Origin: Candidatus Aenigmatarchaeota archaeon
GTDB lineage: Archaea > Aenigmatarchaeota > Aenigmatarchaeia > JACPZZ01
Reading direction: 5' to 3'
DNA length: 64,000 nt
NCBI GenBank assembly: GCA_043801595.1
Contig: JAZDLW010000022.1
Coordinates: 26,812 to 90,811, forward strand
Shown: positions 11,115 through 61,376 of the stretch, one piece after another
How positions within the stretch are numbered: the first letter of the stretch is position 1
How the letters are laid out: every line of letters begins with the position of its first letter
Program-made: the position numbers and the translations under genes
The notes under the pieces: model-generated
What the model saw: the letters and a program-made list of their open reading frames with translations, nothing else
The model's database searches: none
Told to the model about the DNA's origin: nothing

Positions 11115-11161
11115 CAGCGGTTTGCTGTGCAAACCGCGCATAGGAAACTTGGTTTCCTATG
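11115..11161 (+). mobile_element. Family A double-hairpin mini-element (47 nt) in a family C palindrome
   Basis: CAGCG-GTTTGC-TGT-GCAAAC-CGC-GCA-TAGGAAAC-TTG-GTTTCCTA-TG; removal restores TTCAAACTT-TAAGA-AAGTTTGAA. Confidence 0.75.
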
Positions 11162-11191: not shown

Positions 11192-11241
11192 CAACGAAAA
11201 TCATAGATTTTCGTGCACAGGAAATCAACAGATTTTCTGTG
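11192..11241 (+). mobile_element. Family A double-hairpin mini-element (50 nt)
   Basis: CAACG-AAAATC-ATA-GATTTT-CGTGCA-CAGGAAATC-AACA-GATTTTCTG-TG. Confidence 0.75.
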
Positions 11242-16287: not shown

Positions 16288-16336
16288 CACAGGAAACGAT
16301 AGTTTCCTGTGCACGGTTTGCTTTTGCAAACCTTTG
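16288..16336 (-). mobile_element. Family A mini-element (reverse)
   Basis: Reverse complement CAAAG-GTTTGC-AAAA-GCAAAC-CGTGCA-CAGGAAAC-TATC-GTTTCCTG-TG. Confidence 0.75.
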
Positions 16337-16372: not shown

Positions 16373-16473
16373 CAACGGAAACCTATGGTTTCAACGAAAA
16401 CTCAAGAAGTTTTCGTGCATAGGGAAACTCGGTTTCCCCATGCCGTGCATAGGAAATTGTCGAATTTCCTATG
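16373..16473 (+). mobile_element. Two nested family A elements (inner 16392..16442)
   Basis: Removing the inner unit restores ACGGAAACC-TAT-GGTTTCCGT; removing the outer unit restores TAAACTTTT-TAA-AAAAGTTTA. Confidence 0.8.
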
Positions 16474-24293: not shown

Positions 24294-24394
24294 CAACGGA
24301 AAGCTTCTGCTTTCAACGGAAGCCACAGGTTTCCGTGCACAGGAAAATCGTGATTTTCCCGTGCCGTGCATAGGAAATTTCCGAATTTCCTATG
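24294..24394 (+). mobile_element. Two nested family A elements (inner 24314..24363)
   Basis: Removing the inner unit restores ACGGAAAGC-TTCT-GCTTTCCGT; the outer unit sits in a GACCTTT...AAAGGTC palindrome. Confidence 0.8.
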
Positions 24395-24453: not shown

Positions 24454-24939
24454 ATGGTTCAGGACATATTCACGCCATTGCTCGGAAATCTCAATCAACT
24501 GGGTTTTTATAAGTTTTTGCTTCCTTGGCTGTTCACTCTGGCAATAGTCTACGGAATTCTTTTAAAAACGAAGATTTTTGACGAGAAAGAAAAAACCCTA
24601 AACGGCCTTATAGCGCTTGTTGCGGCGTTCTTTGTGGTAAACTACACACCCATTGGTTTTGGTTTGGATTCGTTTTTCACGCAGGCGTTCGGCGTAGGCA
24701 TACTGATACTAACTGCCATTTTTGTGGTGCTGCTGCTCATGGGGCTGGTGGGATTAAAGGGCGAGGAAATATTCAAAGCCGAGAACATGAAGAACGGCGG
24801 CCTGGCAATAATGTTGCTGATTATTTTCATCATCATATTGGTGTTCATGATAGGCGGGGTGAAAATAGATTCGAGCCAGTTAACGCTGATAATGACCCTG
24901 CTGTTCATAATTGTTGCGGTTGCGTACATAGCGAAATAA
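24454..24939 (+). CDS. Multi-pass membrane protein (member 4)
   Basis: LLPWLFTLAIVYGILLKTKIF..LNGLIALVAAFF. Confidence 0.75.
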   Translation: MVQDIFTPLLGNLNQLGFYKFLLPWLFTLAIVYGILLKTKIFDEKEKTLNGLIALVAAFFVVNYTPIGFGLDSFFTQAFGVGILILTAIFVVLLLMGLVGLKGEEIFKAENMKNGGLAIMLLIIFIIILVFMIGGVKIDSSQLTLIMTLLFIIVAVAYIAK

Positions 24940-24950
24940 ACTTCTTAGGA

Positions 24951-25000
24951 CAACGGAAAGCCGAAGCTTTCCGTGCAAAGGAAACGCATCGTTTCCTTTG
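24951..25000 (+). mobile_element. Family A mini-element (50 nt) in a family C palindrome
   Basis: CAACG-GAAAGC-CGAA-GCTTTC-CGTGCA-AAGGAAACG-CAT-CGTTTCCTT-TG; flanks TAAACTTCT/AGAAGTTTA. Confidence 0.8.
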
Positions 25001-25055: not shown

Positions 25056-25640
25056 ATGGCTGCGTTTGATTTCATACAATTACAAAACACCCTGAAAGCT
25101 GCGGGATTTTATGATTTTATCCTGCCTTGGCTGCTGGCGTTTTCGATAGTTTTCGGGGTTCTTCAGACTGTCAACGTTTTCAAGAAGGGTGACGGCAAAC
25201 TGCCCAATACGTCCGTTGACGGGATAATTTCGCTTGTAGTGGCGTTTTATCTGACATTGTTCACGCCTTACCAAGGCTTTCTTTCGTCATTTTTCAGCAA
25301 GCTTTTCGGAAGCTCGATAATAGTTTTATCGGGCGTGCTCATGCTGCTGATATTCGTGGGAATTTTCGGTTTTCAATCCAAGGAACTTTTCCAAGGAACA
25401 AAGACAAAATACGTGGTTTTGGCAGTTGCTCTGGTATTGGCAGCCGGTTTGTTTTTCAACGCAAATTCGGGAATATTCTCGTTCGGCGGCGTGGGTTCGT
25501 TGTTTTCAAGCGGCGGCGATGCGTTAACGTTGATAGTATTTCTTGCGGTAATAGCGCTGGTAATGTGGTATATTGTACACGAAGGCAAAGGTGGGGCAGA
25601 GGAGACACCAGCCAAACCTGTCGGCAAGGATTCGAACTAG
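25056..25640 (+). CDS. Multi-pass membrane protein (member 5)
   Basis: ILPWLLAFSIVFGVLQTVNVFKK..VDGIISLVVAFY. Confidence 0.75.
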   Translation: MAAFDFIQLQNTLKAAGFYDFILPWLLAFSIVFGVLQTVNVFKKGDGKLPNTSVDGIISLVVAFYLTLFTPYQGFLSSFFSKLFGSSIIVLSGVLMLLIFVGIFGFQSKELFQGTKTKYVVLAVALVLAAGLFFNANSGIFSFGGVGSLFSSGGDALTLIVFLAVIALVMWYIVHEGKGGAEETPAKPVGKDSN

Positions 25641-43078: not shown

Positions 43079-43124
43079 CACATAAAATTAAATTTTCTGT
43101 GCACGAAAACCGAAGTTTTAGTTG
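43079..43124 (-). mobile_element. Family A mini-element (reverse)
   Basis: Reverse complement CAACTAAAAC-TTCG-GTTTT-CGTGCA-CAGAAAAT-TTA-ATTTTATG-TG. Confidence 0.7.
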
Positions 43125-47665: not shown

Positions 47666-48933
47666 CTCGGTTTTACATAACCCCAGTGTTTCAACGCTTC
47701 CGAAAGCTCGGCGTGAGTTTTTGAATATTCGTCCAGCGTTACGCCTTTCGTTGTCGCATCTATAGACTGTCGGAATGCCATTGCGCCTTTTTTCGTTCCG
47801 CTCGGATGTCCATGAATACCGCCGCCAGCCTGCACTACGACATCGTTACCGAGTATCCCTATCACATATGGAATTAATCCCGGATGAAGACCGCCCGACG
47901 ATACGGGCATAACAGGCTTTGCGCCGTACCAGTTTTGTTTTAAAATCCTTTCTGAAACATCGTTTGTGATCTTGTCATGAATATTCATCACTTCGCTTTT
48001 CGGCGAAACCAGTTTTCCGACAACAGTGCCGATGTGCAACTGGTCCACGCCTACGATGCGTGCGATCGTAGAGATCATAAGCATTGAGATACCGTGTTTC
48101 GGATTGCGGTCCATTGCAGCGTGCATTGCCCTGTGCATATGGACGACGAGACCAAGATCGCCGCATTCATCCCTTAGTGTTTGTACAGCGGACCAGCCGA
48201 CCGTAAGGCCGTCGACCATGACATACTCGCCGCCGTATTCCTTGACAAGCTTTGCGCGCCTTATCATTTCGTTGGTCTCGGCGCTGACATTGACGAGATA
48301 TGATTTCTTTTCGCCGGTTTTTTTCTCCGCCAAATCGCGCATTCTGAAGCTTTTTTTAATGCGCTCCTCAAACTTGTTGAATTTTTGCGACGACAGGTTT
48401 TCGTCGTCCTTTAGAAGGTCTATTCCGCCGATCCACGCGTCGTAGCCTGTTCTCGCATGCTCGTTTGAGGTCATTCCGACTTTCGGTTTCGGCACTGTTG
48501 CGGTTAACGGACGATCGTAAACGTTAAAAATTTTTCTTATACCATTTATCCCGAACTGCGGGCCGTCGAATGATTTAATGATCGACCTTGGCCACGCGAC
48601 GTCTTCAAGTCGCAAACCGTTTAACGCCTTCATCCCGAACACGTTTCCGGCGATTGATGACAAAATCTGCGGCATGTTTGAAGGCTCGAACAAATCAACA
48701 GGATATGCGATCTTAACGTAATCTTTCTTGATATCAAACGCCTTTGCGGAAAGTTTTCTTATGCGTTCATTGTCAATAGCGACGCCTGTCCATGTGCCGT
48801 TGCTGCTTTCGGACGCAACGTGACCAATCGCGTTTCTCATTGTTATCCCTCTTGCGGGCTGCACGCGGAACAAACACACTAGATCGTTTTTGCCAGGTTT
48901 GTATGTAAGATCCACGAAATCAAGATAATTCAT
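47662..48933 (-). CDS. rbcL: Form III RuBisCO large subunit
   Basis: ESSNGTW, KPKVG, GIDLLKDDE, HRAMH, GTVVGKL, SSGGLHPG, GGGIHGHP. Confidence 0.96.
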   Translation of the reverse strand: MNYLDFVDLTYKPGKNDLVCLFRVQPARGITMRNAIGHVASESSNGTWTGVAIDNERIRKLSAKAFDIKKDYVKIAYPVDLFEPSNMPQILSSIAGNVFGMKALNGLRLEDVAWPRSIIKSFDGPQFGINGIRKIFNVYDRPLTATVPKPKVGMTSNEHARTGYDAWIGGIDLLKDDENLSSQKFNKFEERIKKSFRMRDLAEKKTGEKKSYLVNVSAETNEMIRRAKLVKEYGGEYVMVDGLTVGWSAVQTLRDECGDLGLVVHMHRAMHAAMDRNPKHGISMLMISTIARIVGVDQLHIGTVVGKLVSPKSEVMNIHDKITNDVSERILKQNWYGAKPVMPVSSGGLHPGLIPYVIGILGNDVVVQAGGGIHGHPSGTKKGAMAFRQSIDATTKGVTLDEYSKTHAELSEALKHWGYVKPR

Positions 48934-49838
48934 TGCATCCGTGCTCCTGAAAATTTCTTTTCCATGAAATTTCGTACTGTGCTTGGACGGATCACGCCCA
49001 TTTCCGTTATTATTCCGCTTATGTATTCGGGTGGGACAATGTCAAACGCAGGATTTCTTATTTTTATGCCGTTGATCCTGTTGCTGATTTCGCGCGGCGG
49101 ACGTTCTTCCATTGGTTCGCCAGATCCATCGAGCGTTGCAGGATCCATTTTATTCGAGTCGACCGCGACATAAACCGGCACGTTTCGTTCCTTTGCAGCT
49201 AGGGCGATAAGACCTGATCCTATTTTGTTAATTACAGCGCCGTTCGCGGTTACAGCATCTGCTCCGAACATGACCATATCACAATTTTTCATGAACATTC
49301 TTGCTGCGGAATCAATAATCATCGTTGCCGGTATTCTCATTCGTGAAAGATCCTTTGCCGTAAGCCGACCCTGAAAGAGCGGCCTTGTTTCGGCGAATAT
49401 TACCGAGAACTTCTTTCCTGACAGCTTCGCCCTTTTCAGCACTCCCATTACGGTGTTTGAGTGGCAATGCGTGAAAATAACGAAGCCGTTGTGTATCTTG
49501 CCAGCGCCTATTTCCGCTATTCTGTTTGCGGCAGCGTTCATGCTTCGGGATAGGCTGGCGGTTTCATTATGCAGCGTTTTTTTCATGTCGTTCACGGTCC
49601 TGCCTTCGATTGTTTTTAGCAATGTTGCATTCAGGACATTCCTCAGGGCGGGTTCTGTCGGACGGGCCTTTGATATGGACTTTGCCATTTTGCCAAGCTT
49701 TGAAAAAAATAAAGCCCTGTCGTTTGTTTTGACGCTTTTGGAGTAAAGCTCCAGCGCCTTCAAGCCGGCAAGAGCGACATTTTTTGCGCCTTGAATTTCC
49801 AGCTTTTTTATTTTTCTCACCAGTGAACAGCTGTCCAT
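48930..49838 (-). CDS. Ribose-1,5-bisphosphate isomerase
   Basis: IQGA, RPTEP, THCHS, ETRP, GADA, NKIGS, NPAFD; in operon with rbcL and deoA. Confidence 0.93.
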   Translation of the reverse strand: MDSCSLVRKIKKLEIQGAKNVALAGLKALELYSKSVKTNDRALFFSKLGKMAKSISKARPTEPALRNVLNATLLKTIEGRTVNDMKKTLHNETASLSRSMNAAANRIAEIGAGKIHNGFVIFTHCHSNTVMGVLKRAKLSGKKFSVIFAETRPLFQGRLTAKDLSRMRIPATMIIDSAARMFMKNCDMVMFGADAVTANGAVINKIGSGLIALAAKERNVPVYVAVDSNKMDPATLDGSGEPMEERPPREISNRINGIKIRNPAFDIVPPEYISGIITEMGVIRPSTVRNFMEKKFSGARMQ

Positions 49839-49881
49839 GATATTAATTATCGGGCTTCAGATAAAGCTATTTGGAGAAAAC

Positions 49882-50505
49882 ATGGACGATGCAAAAAAAA
49901 GGCTGATACAGAGCCTTAGGGACGGCGGTTATCTTAAAAGCGACAACGTCATACGCGCATTCGAAAAGGTCGACAGGGAAAAATTCATGCTGCCAGCGTA
50001 CAAATCAGCGGCTTACTCGGACTATCCCTTGCCGATACCCGGTTCGGTTACAATGTCCGCGCCGCATATGCACGCTATTGTGCTTGAAGCGTTGGATTTG
50101 AAAAGCGGCGATTCGGTCCTTGAAGTCGGATTCGGTTCGGGAATACTCCTGGCGTATATCAGCGAGATAGTCGGGCGCGGCAAAATCATCGGTACGGAGA
50201 TAAACAATGAAACATACATTTTCGGTGCGCGCAATCTCGAACGTGCTGGTTATAAAAACGTCATACTTTTAAATGTGAGCGGGGCGAACGGCGTGCGCGA
50301 TTATGCGCCATACGACAAAATTGCTGTAAGCGCGGCTGCGAAAAAAATATTGCCGGGATTGGTATCGCAGCTTAACGACGGCGGAAGAATGGTAATACCC
50401 GTGGGAAGGTTTTCACAGGACCTCATGCTCGTTGAAAAAAATCGCGGAAAGGTGACTGAAAAAAATCTCGGTCCTGTTGTATTTGTTACGTTAACGGAAC
50501 CATGA
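49882..50505 (+). CDS. pcm: Protein-L-isoaspartate O-methyltransferase
   Basis: TMSAPHM, LEVGFGSG, APYDKI..SAA, GGRMVIPV. Confidence 0.93.
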   Translation: MDDAKKRLIQSLRDGGYLKSDNVIRAFEKVDREKFMLPAYKSAAYSDYPLPIPGSVTMSAPHMHAIVLEALDLKSGDSVLEVGFGSGILLAYISEIVGRGKIIGTEINNETYIFGARNLERAGYKNVILLNVSGANGVRDYAPYDKIAVSAAAKKILPGLVSQLNDGGRMVIPVGRFSQDLMLVEKNRGKVTEKNLGPVVFVTLTEP

Positions 50506-51507
50506 CCCGAGGCTTTTTTGCGAGTACTGCGACCTCTTTCTCAACGTTTCCAGAACCTTTGCAACACGATCTTCGGAAAACGAGTGTTCTTCGACCATCA
50601 TTTTTTTAATTCCGTCCTCGTCGGTTTTTCTCCACGTTATTTCATATTCATCAGTAACCGGCGGGTTCATGAAAAAATCCATGACGGCAGCCGGATCGTC
50701 GAAGCCAAAATCATTTTCAGTGAATATTTCGCCCATGCTCTTGCTTTTTACAAGCTGCAACGCTTTTTTGGGACCTATGCCCTTTATGCCCTGGTTGAAA
50801 TCGGTTCCGATAAGAATTCCGATTGTTATAAGCTGTTTTTGGTCCAGCCCGAGATTGCCCAACGCCTTTTTCAAATCTATGAGTTCCGGCTTGATTTCGA
50901 TGTACGTTTCCTTTTTCGGAAGCTTTCTTCTGCCGGTTATGGTTAAATTGCGGATCAGCTTCGGCGCGCCGAACAGCAACGCATCATAATCCTGCGAGCC
51001 TGCAGCCCACGCATGGCCATTTTTGACTATGCGTGAAGCCTGCGCCTCAGCTTCGCTTGGCGCCTGTATTACCGGTATTCCCATGAGATCCAGCAGCCTT
51101 TTCGACTCTTCAGCCATTTCCTTTGTAAGGCGCGATGTTGCTGTCGAAGCTTTGCGCGCCCCTTCGATATCACCGCGTTCAAGGGCTTCGGCCACGTTTT
51201 TTTCAGCCTCCGCCTTTATCGCCCTTCTTTTTTCAATGGTCCTGCGCTTGAATTCGGGCGGTATTCCATCGAAAACGTAAACAGGCATTATTCCGGCTTC
51301 CATCAATTTTGCAGTCCTGTAAAACAAACCGGAAAGATGCGAGGTTATGCGGCCTGCGAAATCCATAAGCGGTGTGCCGTCGGGCTGGCGGATGATAGAT
51401 AAAAACTGGTACAGTGAATTGTACGCGTCTATTGCGATTGTTTTGCCTGCCAGGTCGGCTATCGCCAACTGCTTCCTTTCTATTATTTCCGTAATTTGTA
51501 CTCCCAT
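50491..51507 (-). CDS. fen: Flap endonuclease 1
   Basis: MGV, DAYNSLYQFL, YVFDG, APSEAEAQ, SQDYDALLFG, GTDFN. Confidence 0.97.
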   Translation of the reverse strand: MGVQITEIIERKQLAIADLAGKTIAIDAYNSLYQFLSIIRQPDGTPLMDFAGRITSHLSGLFYRTAKLMEAGIMPVYVFDGIPPEFKRRTIEKRRAIKAEAEKNVAEALERGDIEGARKASTATSRLTKEMAEESKRLLDLMGIPVIQAPSEAEAQASRIVKNGHAWAAGSQDYDALLFGAPKLIRNLTITGRRKLPKKETYIEIKPELIDLKKALGNLGLDQKQLITIGILIGTDFNQGIKGIGPKKALQLVKSKSMGEIFTENDFGFDDPAAVMDFFMNPPVTDEYEITWRKTDEDGIKKMMVEEHSFSEDRVAKVLETLRKRSQYSQKSLGSWFR

Positions 51508-51560
51508 GACCAATTTTTGGGCATATAGATATTAAAAAACTTTGATCGCCAATTAATATC

Positions 51561-52364
51561 ATGGCAAACCCCGTTCACAAGAAAAAAGGCAAAGCCCGAT
51601 CTTTTTCGCCTTCCCTGAATTTTTTGATGGTTGTTGGCGTTACTGTTATTGCGACCATTTCGATGTTTCTTCTTGTAATAGTGGGAAAAACGAGCACGGA
51701 GGATGCGGTATATTGGACGTTATGCTCAATTACCAGCGCGAGTTGTTTCGTAAGTGAGAAATTTTATGCGATTCCCGTTGTAAGGGTGTTCGCACTTATT
51801 AATGGGTCAATATTCATATTAATAATATCGTTTTTAGCGGCGAGCATTGTTGAGAGGATGGGCAGGGTGGACCTGAAGGAAAAATCTGTTAGGAAAAGAC
51901 TCGAAGAATTGAGCGATCATTTTATAATCTGCGGGCACGGAAGAGTGGGAGAAAAGATATCAAGCGTTATGCGCACAAGGGGAATATCTTTTGTGACTGT
52001 TGACAAGGATCCGGAGACGATAAAGGAATTGAACGAGTTGGGAGGTCTTACGGTTGAGGGCAATGCGCTTGATTCCCGGGTTTTGGAAAGGGCGGGAATA
52101 AGAAAGGCGAAGGGTCTGATAGCAGGGCTAAATACGGATTCGGATAACATATCGCTCGTGCTCACGGCAAATGATATAAATCCCAATTTACTTATCGGCG
52201 CGCGCGCGGATTCCGAGGCTGCGATAAGACGATTACACAGGGCTGGTGCGGAAATAGTCGTGCTGCCGGAGGTTGTCGGAGGCTTGCAGCTTGCCAAAGA
52301 AATACTTGAATTAGAGGACATGGAATCGCATGATATGGTCAGCCGCAAGAGCAATAACCCTTAA
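51561..52364 (+). CDS. 2-TM channel-like protein with TrkA-N/RCK domain
   Basis: HFIICGHGRVG NAD-binding motif; TM-pore-TM layout, but no TVGYG. Confidence 0.75.
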   Translation: MANPVHKKKGKARSFSPSLNFLMVVGVTVIATISMFLLVIVGKTSTEDAVYWTLCSITSASCFVSEKFYAIPVVRVFALINGSIFILIISFLAASIVERMGRVDLKEKSVRKRLEELSDHFIICGHGRVGEKISSVMRTRGISFVTVDKDPETIKELNELGGLTVEGNALDSRVLERAGIRKAKGLIAGLNTDSDNISLVLTANDINPNLLIGARADSEAAIRRLHRAGAEIVVLPEVVGGLQLAKEILELEDMESHDMVSRKSNNP

Positions 52365-52389
52365 TTTTATAGGACGACAATTTCTAAGC

Positions 52390-52527
52390 ATGGAAAAGAT
52401 GCTTGTTTGCCAGAGTTGCGGGCGTGTTGCGACATTGATGAACTGTGTTGTGTGTCATTCATCGGTTTGCAGCGATTGTATAAGGCAGTACGGTTGCAAA
52501 ATCTGCGCCGGAAGAAAAACAGCTTAG
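52390..52527 (+). CDS. Small Cys-rich zinc-finger protein
   Basis: Four CxxC pairs in 45 aa. Confidence 0.55.
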   Translation: MEKMLVCQSCGRVATLMNCVVCHSSVCSDCIRQYGCKICAGRKTA

Positions 52528-52781
52528 AAAAGCATGCGGTTTACTTCGATTATTTCAGCCTCAGACACGCCTTTTATCTGTTTGACGGCTTTTTCAATTG
52601 CGTCCGGGCCGCCTTCCGCATCAGGGACTATGAAATACGCCTTAACCGCACTGAGCCCGAATGCCAGCGGTTCCTCCTCTGTTTTCTTGGAACCAAGCTT
52701 TACAAGCGCGACCTTGATGCTTTCCAAATCCGTATCAGTGCCATCGGGCATCACACGAAAAAGAATCATTACATTTCCCAT
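52524..52781 (-). CDS. ef1b: Elongation factor 1-beta
   Basis: FRVMPDG, EEPLAFGLSAVK; adjacent Zn-ribbon gene. Confidence 0.92.
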   Translation of the reverse strand: MGNVMILFRVMPDGTDTDLESIKVALVKLGSKKTEEEPLAFGLSAVKAYFIVPDAEGGPDAIEKAVKQIKGVSEAEIIEVNRMLF

Positions 52782-52800
52782 TAAAATCGTCCTCGCAGAT

Positions 52801-52870
52801 TGAAGCATGTGCTCCGTGACTAGACGCATACATGGTATGCGTCAGTTTCCGTTGCACATGTTTCTAGCTG
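52801..52870 (+). repeat. Nested family B hairpins (inner copy 52820..52845, reverse)
   Basis: TGAAGCATGTGC...GCACATGTTTC-TAGCTG enclosing CTAGACGCATAC-ATG-GTATGCGTCAG. Confidence 0.65.
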
Positions 52871-52873
52871 TAT

Positions 52874-53068
52874 CTACGGCCCTATAAAGCCGCACTTTGA
52901 GCATTTGTATTTGTTGCTAAGGTCTTTGCACTTCTTGCAGCGGCTTATTACCTCGTCGCCGCAATTCGGGCACGGAAACTCCACAAATGTCTCGGCATAG
53001 GCCAACACAGAGCCGCATGTGCCGCATAATTTTTTTGCCGACTCCTGAATATTGACCTGTTGCTCCAT
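52874..53068 (-). CDS. Zn-ribbon protein (DUF1610 family)
   Basis: CGTC..FPCPNCG..RCKKC..YKCSKCGFIGP; upstream of ef1b. Confidence 0.88.
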   Translation of the reverse strand: MEQQVNIQESAKKLCGTCGSVLAYAETFVEFPCPNCGDEVISRCKKCKDLSNKYKCSKCGFIGP

Positions 53069-53154
53069 GTTATCGTATTACTTATCCGAGACGATGTATT
53101 TAAGCCTTTTCTTTTAAAGAAAAGAAAAGCGATATAATGCCTGTATAATGAATA

Positions 53155-53304
53155 CAGCGAAAATCCGACGATTTCAACGAAAACCATTAGGTTTCAACGA
53201 AAAACCGAAGTTTTTCGTGCATGGGAAAATTCGATTTTTCCATGTCGTGTATAGGAAATCGATGATTTTCTATGTCGCGAATAGAAAACCTGTGGTTTTC
53301 TATT
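53155..53304 (+). mobile_element. Three nested family A elements (50+50+50 nt; inner 53195..53244, middle 53175..53274)
   Basis: Sequential removal restores ACGAAAACC-ATTA-GGTTTTCGT, then GCGAAAATC-CGAC-GATTTTCGC. Confidence 0.85.
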
Positions 53305-53307
53305 AAA

Positions 53308-53463
53308 GCTCCTGTGGTCCAGCCTGGACAAGACAAGAGGTTGCGGATAACCTTTTTCCTTTAAAAAGGAAAAACGTTAACGAAAAAGGAAAATTTTGAC
53401 GTTAACGTAAAATAAACGGTTGGCAGATACCTCTAAACCCGGGTTCAAATCCCGGCGGGGGCA
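53308..53463 (+). tRNA. tRNA-Arg(GCG) with 82-nt intron at 37/38 (53347..53428)
   Basis: Acceptor GCTCCTG/CGGGGGC-A; AGAGG-TTGCGG^A-CCTCT; CCGGG-TTCAAAT-CCCGG; strict BHB (UUGC/GCAG helix, GG^A and AU^A bulges). Confidence 0.92.
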
Positions 53464-53468
53464 TATAA

Positions 53469-53954
53469 TTAAAAACTGAATATCCGGAGAATCCAGTGCA
53501 CGCCATAAAATCCTGCCAAAGCCAGGACAACGAGTTTTATCGTGTGGCCGATGTAAGTTGCGACGAAGTATTTTTTCAAATCATATTTCGACAGGCCGCA
53601 TAATACTCCCATAACGTCGAACGGAAACGGCAATGCGCCGAGAAAGATGATAACAAAAAACGGGTTGTATCTTTTCAAGAGATTCTGCACATCTTTTGTT
53701 ATTTTCCTGTTTTTTTTAATTATCATTTTGTGGCCGGCGTAACCGACGAAATAACCTGTCAATTCGCCTATTGCCGCGCCAAGCCCGCCGATCAGGCCGA
53801 CGAGCATCGGATTAAGAATCGAACCGTACAGGAATGCGATTGCCAGACCCGGCACGGGCAGCAGTACGGTCGAATAACTGAGCAGTTCGACCAGGAAAAT
53901 CCCGACATAGCCCCACTGGCTTGCAAGAAGATTGTAAAGCGTTGAAAAATCCAT
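53469..53954 (-). CDS. DedA/VTT-domain membrane protein
   Basis: LPVPG, GAAIGELTGYFVG, PFPFDVMG. Confidence 0.85.
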   Translation of the reverse strand: MDFSTLYNLLASQWGYVGIFLVELLSYSTVLLPVPGLAIAFLYGSILNPMLVGLIGGLGAAIGELTGYFVGYAGHKMIIKKNRKITKDVQNLLKRYNPFFVIIFLGALPFPFDVMGVLCGLSKYDLKKYFVATYIGHTIKLVVLALAGFYGVHWILRIFSF

Positions 53955-53986
53955 AGTATTTATTTCACTTTGTTTTTATTAATCGT

Positions 53987-54499
53987 ATGCCCGACCTTGC
54001 CAGCGTGCTGTGGCTCATACTTCCCGCTTATGTCGCGAACAGCAGCGCGACATTTGCAAAAGGCAGGATCAGCATAGATTTCTCAAAAAAATTTCCTGAC
54101 GGCCGACCGATTTTCGGGGCTGGAAAAACGTTCGAGGGTTTTGCGCTGGGCGTTGCGGTCGGCACGATCGCTGGTTTTTTACAATCGGTTTTGCAGAGCG
54201 CTTACGGAGTTAGCCCTGCGTTCAGCATGAACATTACGATTGCGTTTGCGATGTCGGCTGGAGCGTTGCTCGGTGACATAGCCGGCAGTTTTGTAAAGAG
54301 ACGGTTCGGTTTGAAGAGAGGCGAACCTGTGCCATTGCTGGATCAGCTTGATTTTGTTGCGGGTTCGCTGGTTGTCGCATCGTTCTTTTACGCAATAAGC
54401 TTGGACACAATGCTTGTGCTGGCAATAATAACCCCCGTAATACACTTGGCGGCAAACGTAATCGGATACAAGCTCGGCGTTAAAAAGGAGCCATGGTAA
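53987..54499 (+). CDS. carS: CDP-archaeol synthase
   Basis: PAYVANS, DGRPIFGAGKTFEG, GDIAGSFVKRR, LDQLDF, KKEPW. Confidence 0.93.
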   Translation: MPDLASVLWLILPAYVANSSATFAKGRISIDFSKKFPDGRPIFGAGKTFEGFALGVAVGTIAGFLQSVLQSAYGVSPAFSMNITIAFAMSAGALLGDIAGSFVKRRFGLKRGEPVPLLDQLDFVAGSLVVASFFYAISLDTMLVLAIITPVIHLAANVIGYKLGVKKEPW

Positions 54500-54500
54500 C

Positions 54501-55121
54501 GTGATGAAATCCAGCAGCATGATTGATATTGCCCGCATTGAGAAAATCATCGGAGGGTTATTTTCCAGAATTCCGATGACCCCGAATCAGTGGACTGCCG
54601 CATCGCTGGTTTTCGGAGCGGTCGGCGCAATAATTGTCGTGGCGCAAAAAAGCTTTGCGTATGCGCTCGCGTTTTTTATCATCGCGTTCATAGCGGATTA
54701 TGCTGACGGGGCTGTTGCAAGGTTTCGCCGCAACGAAACGAAACTGGGCGCATATTTCGACGGCATTGCGGACAGGTTTGTGGAGGCGATGATAATAGTA
54801 AGCCTGATGTTTTACGGCGTACCGGATTTTTTAACAGACTCAAGAATATTGCTTGCGTTGCTGCTGTTTATGGCGACGATGACATCGTATTCCCGCGCGT
54901 ACGCCGGCCATAAGAAACTTGTAACCGATCCGAAAAGACTTGTTGCAATGGGCGGAATTCTGGAAAGGTTCGAGCGTGTTTTCGTTCTGCTTTTATCAAT
55001 GCTTGCGTCGCTGTTTTATGGAGCACAGATCATATCATATGCTGCGGCAGCACTGTTATTGTTATCATCGTTAACGGTTTTGCAAAGGATCGCTTATTCG
55101 GCAAAAGAGGGAAGAAAATGA
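54501..55121 (+). CDS. CDP-alcohol phosphatidyltransferase
   Basis: TPNQWT, DYADGAVAR...GAYFDGIADR. Confidence 0.9.
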   Translation: MMKSSSMIDIARIEKIIGGLFSRIPMTPNQWTAASLVFGAVGAIIVVAQKSFAYALAFFIIAFIADYADGAVARFRRNETKLGAYFDGIADRFVEAMIIVSLMFYGVPDFLTDSRILLALLLFMATMTSYSRAYAGHKKLVTDPKRLVAMGGILERFERVFVLLLSMLASLFYGAQIISYAAAALLLLSSLTVLQRIAYSAKEGRK

Positions 55122-55456
55122 AACAAACGATACTCGTACGGACCGATATAAAAATGTCTGTCGGCAAAAAGATTGCGCAGGCGTGCCACGCCTGTGTGGG
55201 CGCGGTCATGGACGCCAACAAGAAAGCCGTTGATGCGTGGAATTCGGCCGGAGCAAAAAAAATCGTGCTTGCCGTAAATGACGGGAAACGATTAACGGAA
55301 TTGTATAAGGGAGCGAAAAAGCTGGGTCTGCCGTGCTTTCTGGTCGCGGATGCAGGATTAACTGAGCTGGAGCCTGGGACGATTACGGCGCTGGCGATAG
55401 GGCCCGCAGACGACAAGCGTATCGATAAACTCACGGGCAACATAAAACTTTTGTAG
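55118..55456 (+). CDS. pth2: Peptidyl-tRNA hydrolase 2
   Basis: KQTILVRTD..M..GK..AQACHA, DAGLTEL.PGT. Confidence 0.95.
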   Translation: MKQTILVRTDIKMSVGKKIAQACHACVGAVMDANKKAVDAWNSAGAKKIVLAVNDGKRLTELYKGAKKLGLPCFLVADAGLTELEPGTITALAIGPADDKRIDKLTGNIKLL

Positions 55457-55464
55457 GCGAATAT

Positions 55465-55872
55465 ATGAAATCTCCAGTTTTAACAGTAGACTCGGTAATC
55501 GAGATAAACGGTAAAATAGTTCTCATCAGGCGGCTTGCGAATTCTTTCAAGGGTTTTTGGGCTCTGCCCGGAGGGTTCGTGGAGTACATGGAGACTGTTG
55601 AGAACGCCGCGATAAGGGAGGCGAAGGAGGAGACCGGATTAAAGATAAAGATAAAGCGGCTCATAGGAGTTTATTCGGATCCGAAAAGAAATCCGGACAA
55701 GAAACACAGGGTCGCGGTGGCATTTGCGGCAGAGAAAATCGGAGGAAAACTGAGAAGCGGCAGCGATGCGGGCGGCATAGGATTGTTTTCCGAACGTGAC
55801 ATGAAAAAGATGAAACTCGCATTCGACCACAACAAGATGATCGGCGATTACTTCAAACAGAGGACGGTTTGA
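55465..55872 (+). CDS. NUDIX hydrolase
   Basis: WALPGGFVEYMETVENAAIREAKEETG. Confidence 0.93.
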   Translation: MKSPVLTVDSVIEINGKIVLIRRLANSFKGFWALPGGFVEYMETVENAAIREAKEETGLKIKIKRLIGVYSDPKRNPDKKHRVAVAFAAEKIGGKLRSGSDAGGIGLFSERDMKKMKLAFDHNKMIGDYFKQRTV

Positions 55873-55873
55873 A

Positions 55874-57307
55874 TTGACAAAGTATGAAAAATTCGTTCCA
55901 ATCGTCCTTTTTTTGTATCTACTGGTTTCCGGATTTAAAATAATAAGCCCGCTGCCGCTGACCTATGACCCTGCGCTACACGCTGAAATAGCAACGTACC
56001 TTATACCGTTGTCGTTGTTCCCGATCACATGGAGCCCGCTGGCTGATGTCGGGTATACGTATCCGCCGCTTTTCCACTGGGCGGCGTTTTTATTTTCAAC
56101 GTCCGGCATCGCAACTTACAAAATCGTAATGCTTATGGGGCTATTGCTTTACGCATTATTTCCAGTATCTTTTTACCTGTACGGCAGCGCGTTCGGGCGG
56201 ATTGAAGCCATGCTTTTTTCGTTTTTCGGTGCAGTGCAGGCCAGCCTGATGGAAGTTTTTGCGGCCGGGGAGTATCCGCAGCTTTTATCAATGAATCTTG
56301 CTGTCATAGCACTTTATTTTTTAGCAAAAAAGGACCTGCCGAAGGCGGGTTTGTTTGCAGGTTTTGTCGTGTTGTCTCATTCGTTCACTTCTATCTATCT
56401 TGCCGTTATACTGGCCGCGTATTTCCTGATTTCCCGCTTAACAAATGAAAAAATAAAATCGTCAAGCGCTGCAGCGTTTTTCCTGATATTCATTGCGATA
56501 TCGTCGTTATGGGCGCCGCGCTACGTACAAATAGCGGAGAATGCGGCGAACAGCAGCTGGGAAAACACGATATGGTACCACAAGGCGGGATTTATCGGTT
56601 TAGAACAGGTCAATAACATTTTTCTGAGCGTCATGCCAGGCGCCAGGATGGGAGCGATCTTTTTGATATTGTCGCTCATCGGAGTGTTTTATGCGTACAA
56701 ACGAAAATTTTATTTTCAATTGTTCGTTTTCGCTTTCACAGTTCTATTTACGGTATTCCACATACCCGGAACGCAATACAAGTTTTCGGACATGCTTGCG
56801 ATCGCGGTTCCACCCATAGCGTCGTTCGGTGTGCTGTACTTCATGGCGAAGACGAATAAGACCAAACCCTACGCAAAAATAATAATCGCAGGTTTTTTTG
56901 TCGCAATGCTTTTGGCGCACCCGTACGTCAATGCGGTCAATATGCGCAATTGCTGCGTGTCAAAGGACATGCCAAACAGCGATGAAATAAAATCGGCGGA
57001 ATGGTTGAACGCGAACGATGCTGTTCATTCCGTAATCGTGATGGATAGCGACGCCGAGGCGTGGTTCGCGCTTATAGCCGGGAAGATTCCGCTGAACCCG
57101 CGCGTATCCGAGTTGGAGTCGTTTACGCCTGCGTACAGGCAAAAAATCGCGGATCGCAGAACCATAATAAATTTGTTCGAGAACAGTACGGCGTTGCTTG
57201 AAAAGTGGAATGTTGATTACATTGTCACGGACACGAACATCAATCCGGCGAATTTCCGTTTATTTCACGAGGAGGGCTTGGTTAAGCTATATAAACGTTA
57301 TGTCTGA
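55874..57307 (+). CDS. Polytopic membrane protein, GT-C-like glycosyltransferase candidate
   Basis: YDPALH, YPPLFH loop motifs; many TMs; C-terminal soluble domain. Confidence 0.55.
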   Translation: MTKYEKFVPIVLFLYLLVSGFKIISPLPLTYDPALHAEIATYLIPLSLFPITWSPLADVGYTYPPLFHWAAFLFSTSGIATYKIVMLMGLLLYALFPVSFYLYGSAFGRIEAMLFSFFGAVQASLMEVFAAGEYPQLLSMNLAVIALYFLAKKDLPKAGLFAGFVVLSHSFTSIYLAVILAAYFLISRLTNEKIKSSSAAAFFLIFIAISSLWAPRYVQIAENAANSSWENTIWYHKAGFIGLEQVNNIFLSVMPGARMGAIFLILSLIGVFYAYKRKFYFQLFVFAFTVLFTVFHIPGTQYKFSDMLAIAVPPIASFGVLYFMAKTNKTKPYAKIIIAGFFVAMLLAHPYVNAVNMRNCCVSKDMPNSDEIKSAEWLNANDAVHSVIVMDSDAEAWFALIAGKIPLNPRVSELESFTPAYRQKIADRRTIINLFENSTALLEKWNVDYIVTDTNINPANFRLFHEEGLVKLYKRYV

Positions 57308-57318
57308 TTATCACTTAG

Positions 57319-57756
57319 GTGAAATCATTGGAGGATAAAAAAAAGGAATTGGAGCAAAAATATTACCTGTACCAATTTTTGAAAGAACAACTGGACAGCC
57401 TTAACAATCAGGCAGAGGCCATGAGAGCGGCGATATTGGAAACACAGGCTTCGATAAATGCTGTCCAAGAGTTGCTTGGCGGCGAGAAGACAACGCTTAT
57501 ACCGCTCGGCGCGGGCACGTTTGTGGAAGGCAAAATAGAAAAAGTCAACAAAGTTGTGATATCGATCGGTTCCGATGTTCTTGTTAACGAGGATTCGGCA
57601 AGCGCCAAAGTAAAGCTTGAACAGAGACTAAATGAGATGGAAAGCGCTTACAACAACCTTTTAAGCGATACGGCAAGCGTTACAGCACAAATACAATCCA
57701 TATTGCCAGACGTGGAGCGCCTTGCGGGCGAGTTAAATTATTCCGATAAGAAATAA
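57319..57756 (+). CDS. pfdA: Prefoldin alpha subunit
   Basis: Coiled coils plus LIPLGAGTFV...VISIGS; upstream of ftsY. Confidence 0.9.
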   Translation: MKSLEDKKKELEQKYYLYQFLKEQLDSLNNQAEAMRAAILETQASINAVQELLGGEKTTLIPLGAGTFVEGKIEKVNKVVISIGSDVLVNEDSASAKVKLEQRLNEMESAYNNLLSDTASVTAQIQSILPDVERLAGELNYSDKK

Positions 57757-57761
57757 TCTAC

Positions 57762-57788
57762 CAAACTTTTAGAAAAGTTTGATCAAAA
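57762..57788 (+). repeat. Family C palindrome (empty copy)
   Basis: CAAACTTTT-AG-AAAAGTTTG-ATCAAAA directly after a stop codon. Confidence 0.6.
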
Positions 57789-57801
57789 GGTGCGCGGTAT
57801 T

Positions 57802-59016
57802 GTGTTTGGATTTCTCAAGAAAAAAATCAAAGAATCGATAGATAACATAAGTAAGGCTGTTTCTAAAAAACCGGTTGAAACGAAAACCGAAGAAAAAAAG
57901 GAAGAAGCCGAGAAAATAGATAATACGGTTGGTACGTACTCAGAGGACAAGTTTTCAGAAAGCGGGGTTGTTGCAGAAAAATCGTTGGAGGACGAAACAA
58001 CACAGGGATATCCCGAAGCTGCGGAAAAGCCAATCAACATCGAAGTCGAAGTTAAGAAAGAGCTTGAGCAGATCGAAACTGCTGAAGAGATAAAACCGCA
58101 TGTTGAAACGAAGACTGAAGGAAAAAAGGAAGGTTTTTTGGGGAGGATAACAAAAAAATTCGCAAAGCAGATAACAGAGGTTACGATAAAGGAGGACGAC
58201 ATCGGCGGCGTGCTGGACGACCTGAAAATCGGACTAATGGAAAACGACGTCGCGCTCGATGTTGCCGAGAAAATATGCGTTGATATCGAGAAAAGCATTG
58301 TCGGAAAAAGCGTGAAAAGATCGAAGATAGAGGATGCGATAAAGGAATCGATGCGGAAAAGCGTTTCCGAGATACTGGCGCAGGATTATACCGATATCGT
58401 TGATTTTGTAAAAACGCACGAGAAACCTGTTCTGATTATTTTCGCGGGATTCAACGGCGCGGGAAAAACAACAACGCTTGCGCGCGTAGGAAAATACCTG
58501 AAGGATCGAAGTTTGGAATGCGTTTTCGCAGCCGGCGATTCGTTCCGCGCTGCGAGCATAGAACAGATACAGGTGCACGGCGACCGTCTTGGAATAAAAG
58601 TGATCAAGCATGGTTACGGAGCTGATTCTGCGGCTGTTGTGTTCGACGCGATGAAGTACGCAATTGCGCATAACATTGATGTCGTTTTAGCAGATACAGC
58701 CGGAAGGACGCACGTCAACGCAAATTTGATGGACGAATTGAAGAAGGTCTGCCGCGTCAATAAACCAGCGATGAAGATACTCATCCTTGATAGCCTAACG
58801 GGCAATGACATAGTGCAGCAGGCGCAGCGCTTTGATGAAGCGATCGGCATAGATGCGGTCGTATTTACGAAAGTAGACGTTTATGAAAGGGGCGGGGCTA
58901 TTTTGTCAGCGTCGCACACGATAAAAAAACCGATTTTATTTTTGGGTGTTGGTCAGGATTACGACGATCTTGAGAAGTTTGATAAGGATAAGATTGTTGA
59001 TATGTTACTTGCGTGA
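57802..59016 (+). CDS. ftsY: SRP receptor FtsY
   Basis: Acidic N-region, GFNGAGKTTT, DSFRAAS, DTAGR, TKVD. Confidence 0.96.
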   Translation: MFGFLKKKIKESIDNISKAVSKKPVETKTEEKKEEAEKIDNTVGTYSEDKFSESGVVAEKSLEDETTQGYPEAAEKPINIEVEVKKELEQIETAEEIKPHVETKTEGKKEGFLGRITKKFAKQITEVTIKEDDIGGVLDDLKIGLMENDVALDVAEKICVDIEKSIVGKSVKRSKIEDAIKESMRKSVSEILAQDYTDIVDFVKTHEKPVLIIFAGFNGAGKTTTLARVGKYLKDRSLECVFAAGDSFRAASIEQIQVHGDRLGIKVIKHGYGADSAAVVFDAMKYAIAHNIDVVLADTAGRTHVNANLMDELKKVCRVNKPAMKILILDSLTGNDIVQQAQRFDEAIGIDAVVFTKVDVYERGGAILSASHTIKKPILFLGVGQDYDDLEKFDKDKIVDMLLA

Positions 59017-60849: not shown

Positions 60850-61376
60850 TTGCTTTGAAGATCGGCGTATTCGGAGATGCGCACATACCTGATCGTGCCC
60901 ATAATATTCCAGAATCAATCAGGAAAGAACTTTATTCGTGCGATATGATTGTCTGTACCGGAGACTTGACGGGCGAGGACGTTGTCAAATTTATCAAAGC
61001 GTCAGGAAAAAAACACAAAATCGTGCGCGGGAACATGGACCATTTGGATTTTCCGAAGACCGAAAGCATTGATATAGAAGGAAAGAAGATAGTTATAACA
61101 ACGATTTGCTTTGCAAATCGTGCATAGGAAATCGATATTTCCTATGCGCACAGCGACGAAGTGAGGCCGAGAGGCGACAAAGAACAGCTGTTCGGAATTG
61201 CGAAAAGATATTGCGCTGATGTTTTGGCGTACGGGCATACACACAAACAGGACGTATGGGAAAAAGACGGCATAATGTTCGTGAATCTGGGATCAGCGAC
61301 AGGTTGCGGCAGAACAGGACAGCATTGTGCGGTTATTGAAATAAAAAATAATTCGATAAACGTGAAAAGGGTTTGA
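60846..61376 (+). pseudogene. YfcE/Vps29-family metallophosphoesterase interrupted in frame by a 48-nt family A element carrying TAG
   Basis: DAH, GDL, GNMD in the first ORF and HSD, GHTH, NLGS in the second; both in the same frame; excision gives KIVITHSDEV. Confidence 0.8.
61099..61146 (+). mobile_element. Family A mini-element (48 nt) inside a CDS
   Basis: CAACG-ATTTGC-TTT-GCAAAT-CGTGCA-TAGGAAAT-CGAT-ATTTCCTA-TG. Confidence 0.85.

What the first reader, a model, noticed from the sequence alone, without database searches (positions are those of the whole stretch)
53155..53304. Russian-doll self-insertion at a fixed position (50+50+50 nt) just upstream of tRNA-Arg
Seen: three family A units are nested. 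Each inner copy sits at the same site in the 3' arm of hairpin 1, TTT^(C/T)CG(T/C)G, 4 nt before the hairpin junction. The same geometry recurs at 16373..16473 and 24294..24394, giving four nesting events at one register. Inner and outer copies differ in sequence, so this is not tandem duplication. The outermost copy is the most diverged (CGCGAA core, TT end), consistent with being oldest. Inference: the element carries its own preferred target, as in guide-directed target choice by IS608-like TnpA or RAYT cleavage near REP hairpins.
Basis: partly seen in the sequence, partly recalled or inferred. Interest (0 to 1): 0.82.

Follow-up and report, generated by a model that had tools for sequence, protein, structure and literature searches.

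The report
Self-nesting hairpin element in tiny archaea
Three copies of a 50-base mobile DNA element, each made of two hairpins, sit one inside another at the same bond beside a tRNA gene; relatives show the same habit, so the element prefers to jump into its own kind, by an enzyme not yet found.

Summary
Real. Window 53155-53304 is three ~50-nt two-hairpin units nested last-in-first-out, each cut 5 nt (not 4) before the hairpin junction, with no target duplication, 3 nt upstream of an intron-bearing tRNA-Arg(GCG). The genome holds 68 units; 15 of 17 complete self-nests use this bond. Congeners and metagenome contigs repeat it (24 of 28 overall). Empty sites (an in-frame copy in rtcA, reciprocal filled/empty hosts) show precise insertion. 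Some nests were copied whole, but near-identical inner units sit in unrelated hosts, so events recur. One subfamily (longer hairpin-2 stem) is found only at this bond (21 of 21, against 0 of 127). Not supported: 'outermost = most diverged = oldest' (inner more diverged in 14 of 21 pairs) and an IS608-type base-pairing guide (none found). No TnpA or RAYT was found in this 86%-complete genome. Best reading: a non-autonomous, hairpin-targeting mini-element, closest to Haloquadratum SMR-A/PATEs and REPINs, moved in trans, probably by an HUH enzyme (inferred). The scan noted this family before on other DNA (e1-1066487, e1-2785757).

The parts
53155..53174 (+). Outermost family A unit, left part (5' arm and cap of hairpin 1; CAGCG variant)
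53175..53194 (+). Middle unit, left part
53195..53244 (+). Innermost intact 50-nt unit, of the long-hairpin-2 (7-purine) subfamily that is found only in nests
53245..53274 (+). Middle unit, right part (last 5 nt of hairpin 1 plus hairpin 2)
53275..53304 (+). Outermost unit, right part (TCGCG plus hairpin 2)
53308..53463 (+). tRNA-Arg(GCG) with an 82-nt hairpin-rich intron
   Evidence: orthologues in 5 congeners lack the nest
52874..53068 (-). Divergent small zinc-finger gene (HVO_2753-like, PF07754); an AT-rich box at about 53097-53103 is shared with congeners
52524..52829 (-). Elongation factor 1-beta gene (PF00736)
16373..16473 (+). Double nest (inner 16392-16442), same bond, inside a TAAACTT/AAGTTTA hairpin downstream of ftsZ
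24294..24394 (+). Double nest (inner 24314-24363), same bond; inner unit shared with two other loci
11115..11161 (+). Solo family A unit
11192..11241 (+). Solo family A unit
16288..16336 (-). Solo family A unit
24951..25000 (+). Solo family A unit inside a host hairpin
43079..43124 (-). Solo family A unit, degenerate
61099..61146 (+). Solo family A unit

Best explanation
Family A is a non-autonomous mobile mini-element of 46-52 nt made of two abutting hairpins with conserved feet (mostly 5'-CA...TG-3', one bulged base) and free loops. SHOWN: it inserts precisely, with no target duplication or loss, and it prefers the 3' arm of hairpins, usually 1-5 nt below the loop. Its own hairpin 1 offers such a site 5 bp below the loop, and one subfamily with a longer hairpin-2 stem is found only there, which builds the Russian dolls one layer at a time. 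Some finished nests are then copied as a unit or trimmed by deletion between their direct repeats. INFERRED: it moves as single-stranded DNA; joined end to end it would form a nearly fully paired dumbbell; a cut-and-rejoin enzyme supplied in trans reads hairpin shape plus a few bases in both element and target. An HUH (Y1) transposase from passing IS200/IS605 elements is my leading candidate (about 0.45 on its own); real, repeated, site-preferring insertion is about 0.85.
For: Register: 15 of 17 complete nests in the whole-genome parse; 24 of 28 with congeners and metagenome contigs, P about 5e-26 even if only the ~19 T^Y/R^A bonds per host are allowed, and 3e-9 if deflated to 9 of 11 events. 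Nested order 9 of 9 informative. Empty sites: a 48-nt in-frame copy in the RNA 3'-phosphate cyclase gene (G000:C23:79587) is absent in 5 of 5 congeners with the reading frame otherwise equal in length; L001 and L024, loci with different neighbouring genes, carry the same host reciprocally filled and empty; 5 of 5 congener orthologues of this tRNA-Arg region lack the nest. Recurrence: inner-versus-host Mantel r only 0.21; 20-25 clusters among 26 nests at distance 0.1-0.2; near-identical inner units in unlike hosts (L071/L079 0.00 vs 0.27; L090/L093 0.02 vs 0.31; random pairs average 0.32); same bond used in a host with a different flank (GCAAA^TCATG, C13:12494) and at the equivalent bond of sister family A', in both orientations relative to that host (L001 vs L114, L164). 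Subfamily link: hairpin-2 purine run of 7 or more in 21 of 28 nested units and 0 of 127 others. Hairpin targeting: 48 of 121 non-nested sites lie in a perfect stem of 7 bp or more, against 3.6% of 4000 non-coding controls; 40 of the 48 are 1-5 nt into the 3' arm. Link to IS200/IS605: 4 copies in G004 sit in the loop of hairpins that resemble the right end of the G004/G006 IS200 element; Y1 transposases occur in 2 of 8 genomes of the family. No duplication plus subterminal hairpins is the IS200/IS605 pattern (passages of PMC6006769, PMC3119063).
Against: No enzyme found: PF01797 0 hits in G000 (86% complete), phmmer with the G004 TnpA best E 0.9, RAYT model NF047646 0 of 5 genomes. The IS200 ends in G004/G006 do not resemble family A. 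Flanks are not a fixed tetranucleotide; the cut dinucleotide is mixed (A^A 65, T^T 20, A^G 13 of 123 non-nested), which fits either two classes or two orientations and is unlike IS608. Mantel p 0.0006 and one identical composite pair (C17:16688 = C27:612) show partial non-independence; at the loosest threshold only 11 clusters remain. 73 of 121 non-nested sites are not in a perfect 7-bp hairpin. The circular fold (both ends paired in 153 of 157) has no control and follows largely from having two hairpins. Congener loci were picked by patterns, one of which required this register, so only the G000 count is unbiased.
Confidence: 0.6

Rival explanations
1. One or a few ancestral nests spread as composites, and inner units then 'homed' into empty relatives by gene conversion using the 20- and 30-nt homologous flanks; there is no enzymatic preference for the bond.
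For: Weak but significant inner-host correlation (r 0.21, p 0.0006), one identical composite pair, 11 clusters at the loosest threshold; the nest-only subfamily could be simple descent; three G004 hosts of one inner type share flanks of about 10 nt.
Against: Same bond used where one flank is not homologous (C13:12494; A' hosts, in both orientations); identical inner units in hosts as unlike as random pairs; nests of three and four layers; non-nested copies also favour the 3' arm of unrelated hairpins.
Confidence: 0.15
2. IS608-like guide: a few bases of the element pair with the target and so pick its own hairpin 1.
For: Strong subfamily-to-target association (z 15-16 for hairpin-2 positions +10/-10 against flank +2; 21 of 21); one subfamily's hairpin-2 stem (TAGAAAA/TTTTCTA) equals the stem of the A' hairpin it enters in 3 parsed cases and one read by eye (L170); A' follows an A in the 8 copies printed.
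Against: No variable column is complementary to any flank position in more than 45% of 153 units, and loops are no more like their own flanks than shuffled ones (p 0.5). The ends are paired to the last base, leaving no unpaired guide 5' of a hairpin foot as described for IS608 and REPs (passages of PMC6006769, PMC3479197).
Confidence: 0.12
3. Host enzymes only: a hairpin-nicking repair nuclease or topoisomerase opens genomic hairpins near the tip and ligates in a free two-hairpin fragment; no transposase is involved.
For: No transposase, integrase, IS110 or reverse transcriptase hit in G000; cuts cluster just 3' of loops; the family persists across 8 of 8 genomes of the family whether or not TnpA is seen.
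Against: Element ends are exact in the parsed copies (the parser selects for this) and at the empty sites; conserved feet and bulge with free loops suggest a dedicated binder (inference); no such host pathway is known to me (recalled).
Confidence: 0.1
4. Replication slippage (separate tandem duplications of left and right parts) or assembly chimeras made the nests.
For: One metagenome nest has identical left parts (L172); 2 half-nests in G000 show that slippage trims nests; reads could not be checked.
Against: Layers differ with compensated stems; outer-left pairs with outer-right in 9 of 9 informative cases; nests recur in independent assemblies of G001, G002, G004, G006 and metagenome contigs.
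Confidence: 0.03

Closest known systems
SMR-A small mobile repeats of Haloquadratum walsbyi (PMC3119063, passages read)
   Same: Archaeal, transposase-free, no target duplication, strong preference for inserting within the near-terminal palindromes of IS605 elements and PATEs, mobilisation unexplained. Family A also enters IS200/605-like end hairpins.
   Different: SMR-A are about 110 bp with terminal inverted repeats and over 95% identity, and almost never target themselves (1 of 114 events in that paper's Table 5). Family A is about 50 nt, two side-by-side hairpins with free loops, and self-nests at one bond.
PATEs and terminal-only IS605 derivatives (PMC3119063, passages read)
   Same: No terminal inverted repeats, palindromes at the ends, no duplication; a 52-bp terminal-only form may be mobile.
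   Different: PATE palindromes match IS605 ends and use a conserved target oligonucleotide; family A does not resemble the IS200 ends in its own genus and has no fixed 5' flank.
REP/REPIN/BIME with RAYT (TnpA-REP) (PMC3116915 passages and Discussion; PMC3479197 and PMC6006769 passages)
   Same: Short non-coding imperfect hairpins in pairs, lineage-restricted, vertically kept, mosaic clusters, a conserved bulge.
   Different: No GTAG-type tetranucleotide at the hairpin foot, no C^T cut rule, no RAYT found; the two hairpins are side by side rather than one inverted doublet; ordered REPIN clusters in the passages read are tandem, not nested.
IS608/ISDra2 (IS200/IS605 family)
   Same: Two subterminal hairpins, precise insertion without duplication.
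   Different: No transposase gene, no conserved target tetranucleotide, no guide pairing found.

Membership tests
IS200/IS605 derivative (PATE) | No target site duplication | tested here: met
   Empty sites in rtcA (5 of 5 congeners), L001/L024 and restored hairpin pairing in nests
IS200/IS605 derivative (PATE) | Hairpins at both ends, no terminal inverted repeat | tested here: met
   only a CA/TG dinucleotide is inverted
IS200/IS605 derivative (PATE) | Conserved 4-6 nt target next to the left end | tested here: not met
   Flank composition is mixed at all ten positions; only subfamily-level biases
IS200/IS605 derivative (PATE) | Guide tetranucleotide 5' of the hairpin foot that pairs with the cut site | tested here: not met
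   Best complementarity among variable columns 0.45 in 153 units
IS200/IS605 derivative (PATE) | End hairpins related to an autonomous IS605/IS200 element | tested here: not met
   By-eye comparison with the two IS200 copies in the genus; other, unseen parents are not excluded
IS200/IS605 derivative (PATE) | Mobilised by TnpA through a single-stranded circle | not testable with these tools
   Needs biochemistry or circle-junction reads; no sequencing run was listed
REP/REPIN-RAYT | Single-copy RAYT gene flanked by the repeats | tested here: not met
   PF01797 0 in G000 and 2 of 8 in the family, both with IS200-type ends; NF047646 0 of 5; genomes are 65-91% complete
REP/REPIN-RAYT | GTAG-type tetranucleotide at the hairpin foot and C^T cleavage | tested here: not met
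   Consensus frame has none; C^T is 2 of 123 non-nested cuts on the element strand, its reverse complement A^G 13 of 123
REP/REPIN-RAYT | Repetitive, palindromic, mostly extragenic | tested here: met
   68 units at 51 loci; 40 of 51 outside naive ORFs in a genome 88% covered by them; 4 in tRNA introns, 5 within 60 nt of a tRNA
SMR-A (Haloquadratum) | Prominent terminal inverted repeats, about 110 bp | tested here: not met
   46-52 nt, no terminal inverted repeat
SMR-A (Haloquadratum) | Inserts without duplication into palindromes of other elements | tested here: met
IS110-dependent element | IS110 recombinase present | tested here: not met
   PF02371 0 of 5 genomes

The most novel reading that the evidence does not exclude
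A minimal mobile element of a new class: a 50-nt single-stranded dumbbell whose insertion site is set by the shape and stem sequence of its own second hairpin, so that each subfamily homes to a matching hairpin (its own kin, a sister family, IS ends), and which is moved by an enzyme unrelated to known Y1 transposases, perhaps a host protein of these DPANN archaea.
Probability: 0.2. Interest if true: 0.8.

Novelty: new variant of a known kind. Interest (0 to 1): 0.55.

Why it matters
How REP-like and SMR-like repeats are inserted and how they choose sites is still open; the papers read call it unclear or enigmatic. Here a family of about 50 nt leaves an unusually readable record: exact ends, empty sites, ordered layers and a subfamily tied to one phosphodiester bond. 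That makes target choice testable with short oligonucleotides once an enzyme is in hand. It also shows a tiny archaeal genome parking mobile DNA in tRNA introns and leaders, in other repeats and even in frame in a conserved gene.

Tried and rejected
Sequencing runs: none was listed for window 48001-58000, so no read test of chimerism, excision or expression was made; this is no evidence either way. Viral contigs: 0 matches. Enzyme searches without a hit in G000: PF01797, PF02371, PF00589 (33; 2 of 5 genomes), PF00078 (34; 2 of 5), NF047646, phmmer with TnpA (47). A crude HUH-motif scan gave 4 ORFs that looked spurious and were not followed. Pfam scan of 62 proteins, mostly beside nests, showed housekeeping or unnamed proteins and no nuclease-transposase apart from the G004 TnpA control and two reverse transcriptases from other genomes; unnamed ones were not followed. 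Circularly permuted units: 3 pattern hits, none a real unit. Loop-to-flank similarity: none. Autonomous parent with a gene between the hairpins: orphan-hairpin search found only decayed copies. Loose hairpin test by free energy was weakly informative (86 of 121 against 43.5% of controls) and was replaced by a strict one. The Nitrososphaerales hit L130 is a chance match inside a coding sequence with no second hairpin. Bulge-helix-bulge splicing of the unit was considered by eye and not supported; it was not tested by a dedicated call. Two low-scoring congener units were dropped before counts. Literature: five searches listed no paper on this family; the library lacks most subscription journals, and no supplements were read.

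Full report
Setting. The window is G000:C17:26812-90811 of an 814-kb, 32-contig, 86%-complete genome. Archaeal genes and tRNA introns, and the fact that 25 of 27 named records matching the repeat are Candidatus Aenigmatarchaeota (one more is an unnamed archaeon, one a chance hit), place it among these DPANN archaea by inference; earlier notes of the scan say the same.

Observation. A recursive parser that removes the innermost two-hairpin unit and repeats found 68 units at 51 loci. At 53155-53304 it gives three 50-nt layers, each cut at TTT^YCGYG, 5 nt before the junction of hairpins 1 and 2. The nest ends 3 nt before tRNA-Arg(GCG), 53308-53463, which has an 82-nt intron (missed without intron search). 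The two other window nests have the same register. Removing each layer restores a paired hairpin with nothing gained or lost, and in 9 of 9 informative nests of 21 the outer left arm pairs with the distal right arm, which separate duplications of left and right parts would not give.

Register. In G000, 15 of 17 complete self-nests are at -5, one at +2 and one at +8, all in the same orientation. Adding congener loci and metagenome contigs gives 24 of 28 (others: two at +2, one at +8, one doubtful at +20). This is far beyond chance even if only the about 19 T^Y or R^A bonds per host are allowed (P 5e-26; 3e-9 when deflated to 9 of 11 events). Congener loci were chosen by pattern, and the pattern required this register, so the G000 count is the unbiased one. 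Further three- and four-layer nests were seen in G004 and metagenome contigs (L079; L087, L170, L172 read by eye).

Mobility. A 48-nt copy lies in frame in the RNA 3'-phosphate cyclase gene and is absent from 5 of 5 congeners, whose frames are otherwise the same length. A sister two-hairpin family (A') interrupts an IS200 tnpA in G006 that is intact in G004. L001 and L024, with different neighbouring genes, hold the same composite host reciprocally filled and empty. The orthologous tRNA-Arg region lacks the nest in 5 of 5 congeners that have it. So insertion is precise and leaves no duplication.

Independence. Among 26 nested units, inner and host distances correlate weakly (Mantel r 0.21, p 0.0006); one composite is duplicated outright; 25, 23, 20 and 11 clusters remain at thresholds 0.1, 0.15, 0.2 and 0.25. 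Near-identical inner units occur in hosts as unlike as random pairs. The same bond is used in a host whose flank is GCAAA instead of GGTTT, and the equivalent bond is used in A' in both orientations. I read this as many events plus some whole-nest copying.

What sets the target. Non-nested copies favour hairpins too: 48 of 121 in perfect stems of 7 bp or more against 3.6% of non-coding controls, 40 of them 1-5 nt into the 3' arm; 73 of 121 do not pass this strict test. Hosts include a second repeat family, tRNA introns and, in G004, four hairpins like the right end of the local IS200 element. Units whose hairpin 2 starts with a run of 7 or more purines are all nested (21 of 21; 0 of 127 others; 7 nested units lack it). 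But a scan of 44 element columns against 10 flank positions in 153 units found association without base-pair logic (best complementarity 0.45 among variable columns), and loops do not resemble their flanks. Kin share both traits, so the association alone does not prove cause.

Age. The outermost layer here is farthest from consensus but fully paired, and its variant also occurs solo and innermost. Across 21 pairs the inner unit is more diverged in 14, the outer in 4. Order follows from the nesting itself, not from divergence.

Enzyme. None was found in G000. Y1 transposases occur in 2 of 8 genomes of the family and, as a partial hit, in 1 of 2 of the other carrier genus; the two examined have ordinary IS200 ends unlike family A. 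The repeat pattern occurs in 10 of 371 genomes of the phylum: all 8 of this family and 2 of one other genus. A domesticated RAYT is therefore unlikely; a passing or divergent HUH enzyme remains my best guess because precise, duplication-free insertion of hairpin-ended DNA is that family's pattern (inference; passages of PMC6006769, PMC3479197).

Comparison. It works most like Haloquadratum SMR-A repeats and PATEs (passages of PMC3119063) and REPINs (passages and Discussion of PMC3116915), but fails defining tests for each, so it is not filed as a member. Five paper searches listed no description of this family or of fixed-bond self-nesting; the library is incomplete and no supplements were read.

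Verdict. Observation confirmed; interpretation partly supported. A new variant of a known kind, interest 0.55; the most novel reading (element-encoded structural homing by an unknown enzyme) has probability about 0.2.

Noticed in passing
G000:C23:79587-79634 (L031): A 48-nt unit adds 16 residues in frame to the RNA 3'-phosphate cyclase; absent in 5 of 5 congeners. Whether the protein still works is unknown.
   Followed up: partly
L041:1464-1511 (G006): Sister two-hairpin family A' interrupts an IS200 tnpA that is intact in G004 (L040:1468-1938, minus), where it lies next to the orthologous tRNA-Arg. A' has 2 copies in G000 (C2, C14) and enters family A at register +2 (L090, L172).
   Followed up: partly
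window 53347-53429; L012-L016, L019: The tRNA-Arg(GCG) intron is a mosaic of AT-rich hairpins that differs among congeners and is absent in G002 and G005, which suggests intron gain or growth by hairpin elements.
   Followed up: partly
window 53097-53131; L013-L016: An AT-rich box shared with congeners lies about 35 nt before the tRNA in G002, G005 and G006 but about 210 nt before it here; if it is the promoter, the nest is a long structured tRNA leader. RNase P subunit genes are present.
   Followed up: no
L081, L085, L089, L100 (G004): Family A in the loop of IS200/IS605-like right-end hairpins; L085 and L089 share the inner unit but not the outer flanks, so end plus insert may have moved together.
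   Followed up: partly
L170, L087, L172: Four-member mosaics of A inside A inside A', read by eye; L172 has identical repeated left parts, a possible slippage case.
   Followed up: partly
L174-L177 (G066, G067): A variant with CAGTG/CACG feet and a longer, bulged hairpin 2 in a different family of the phylum; no nests seen in 4 loci.
   Followed up: partly
window 24454-24939 and 25056-25640: Two related genes without Pfam match, flanked by a nest and a solo unit.
   Followed up: no
G000:C19:6366-6533: ARAGORN's 'tRNA-Pyl' call contains a family A unit in its intron and is probably a mis-read anticodon.
   Followed up: no
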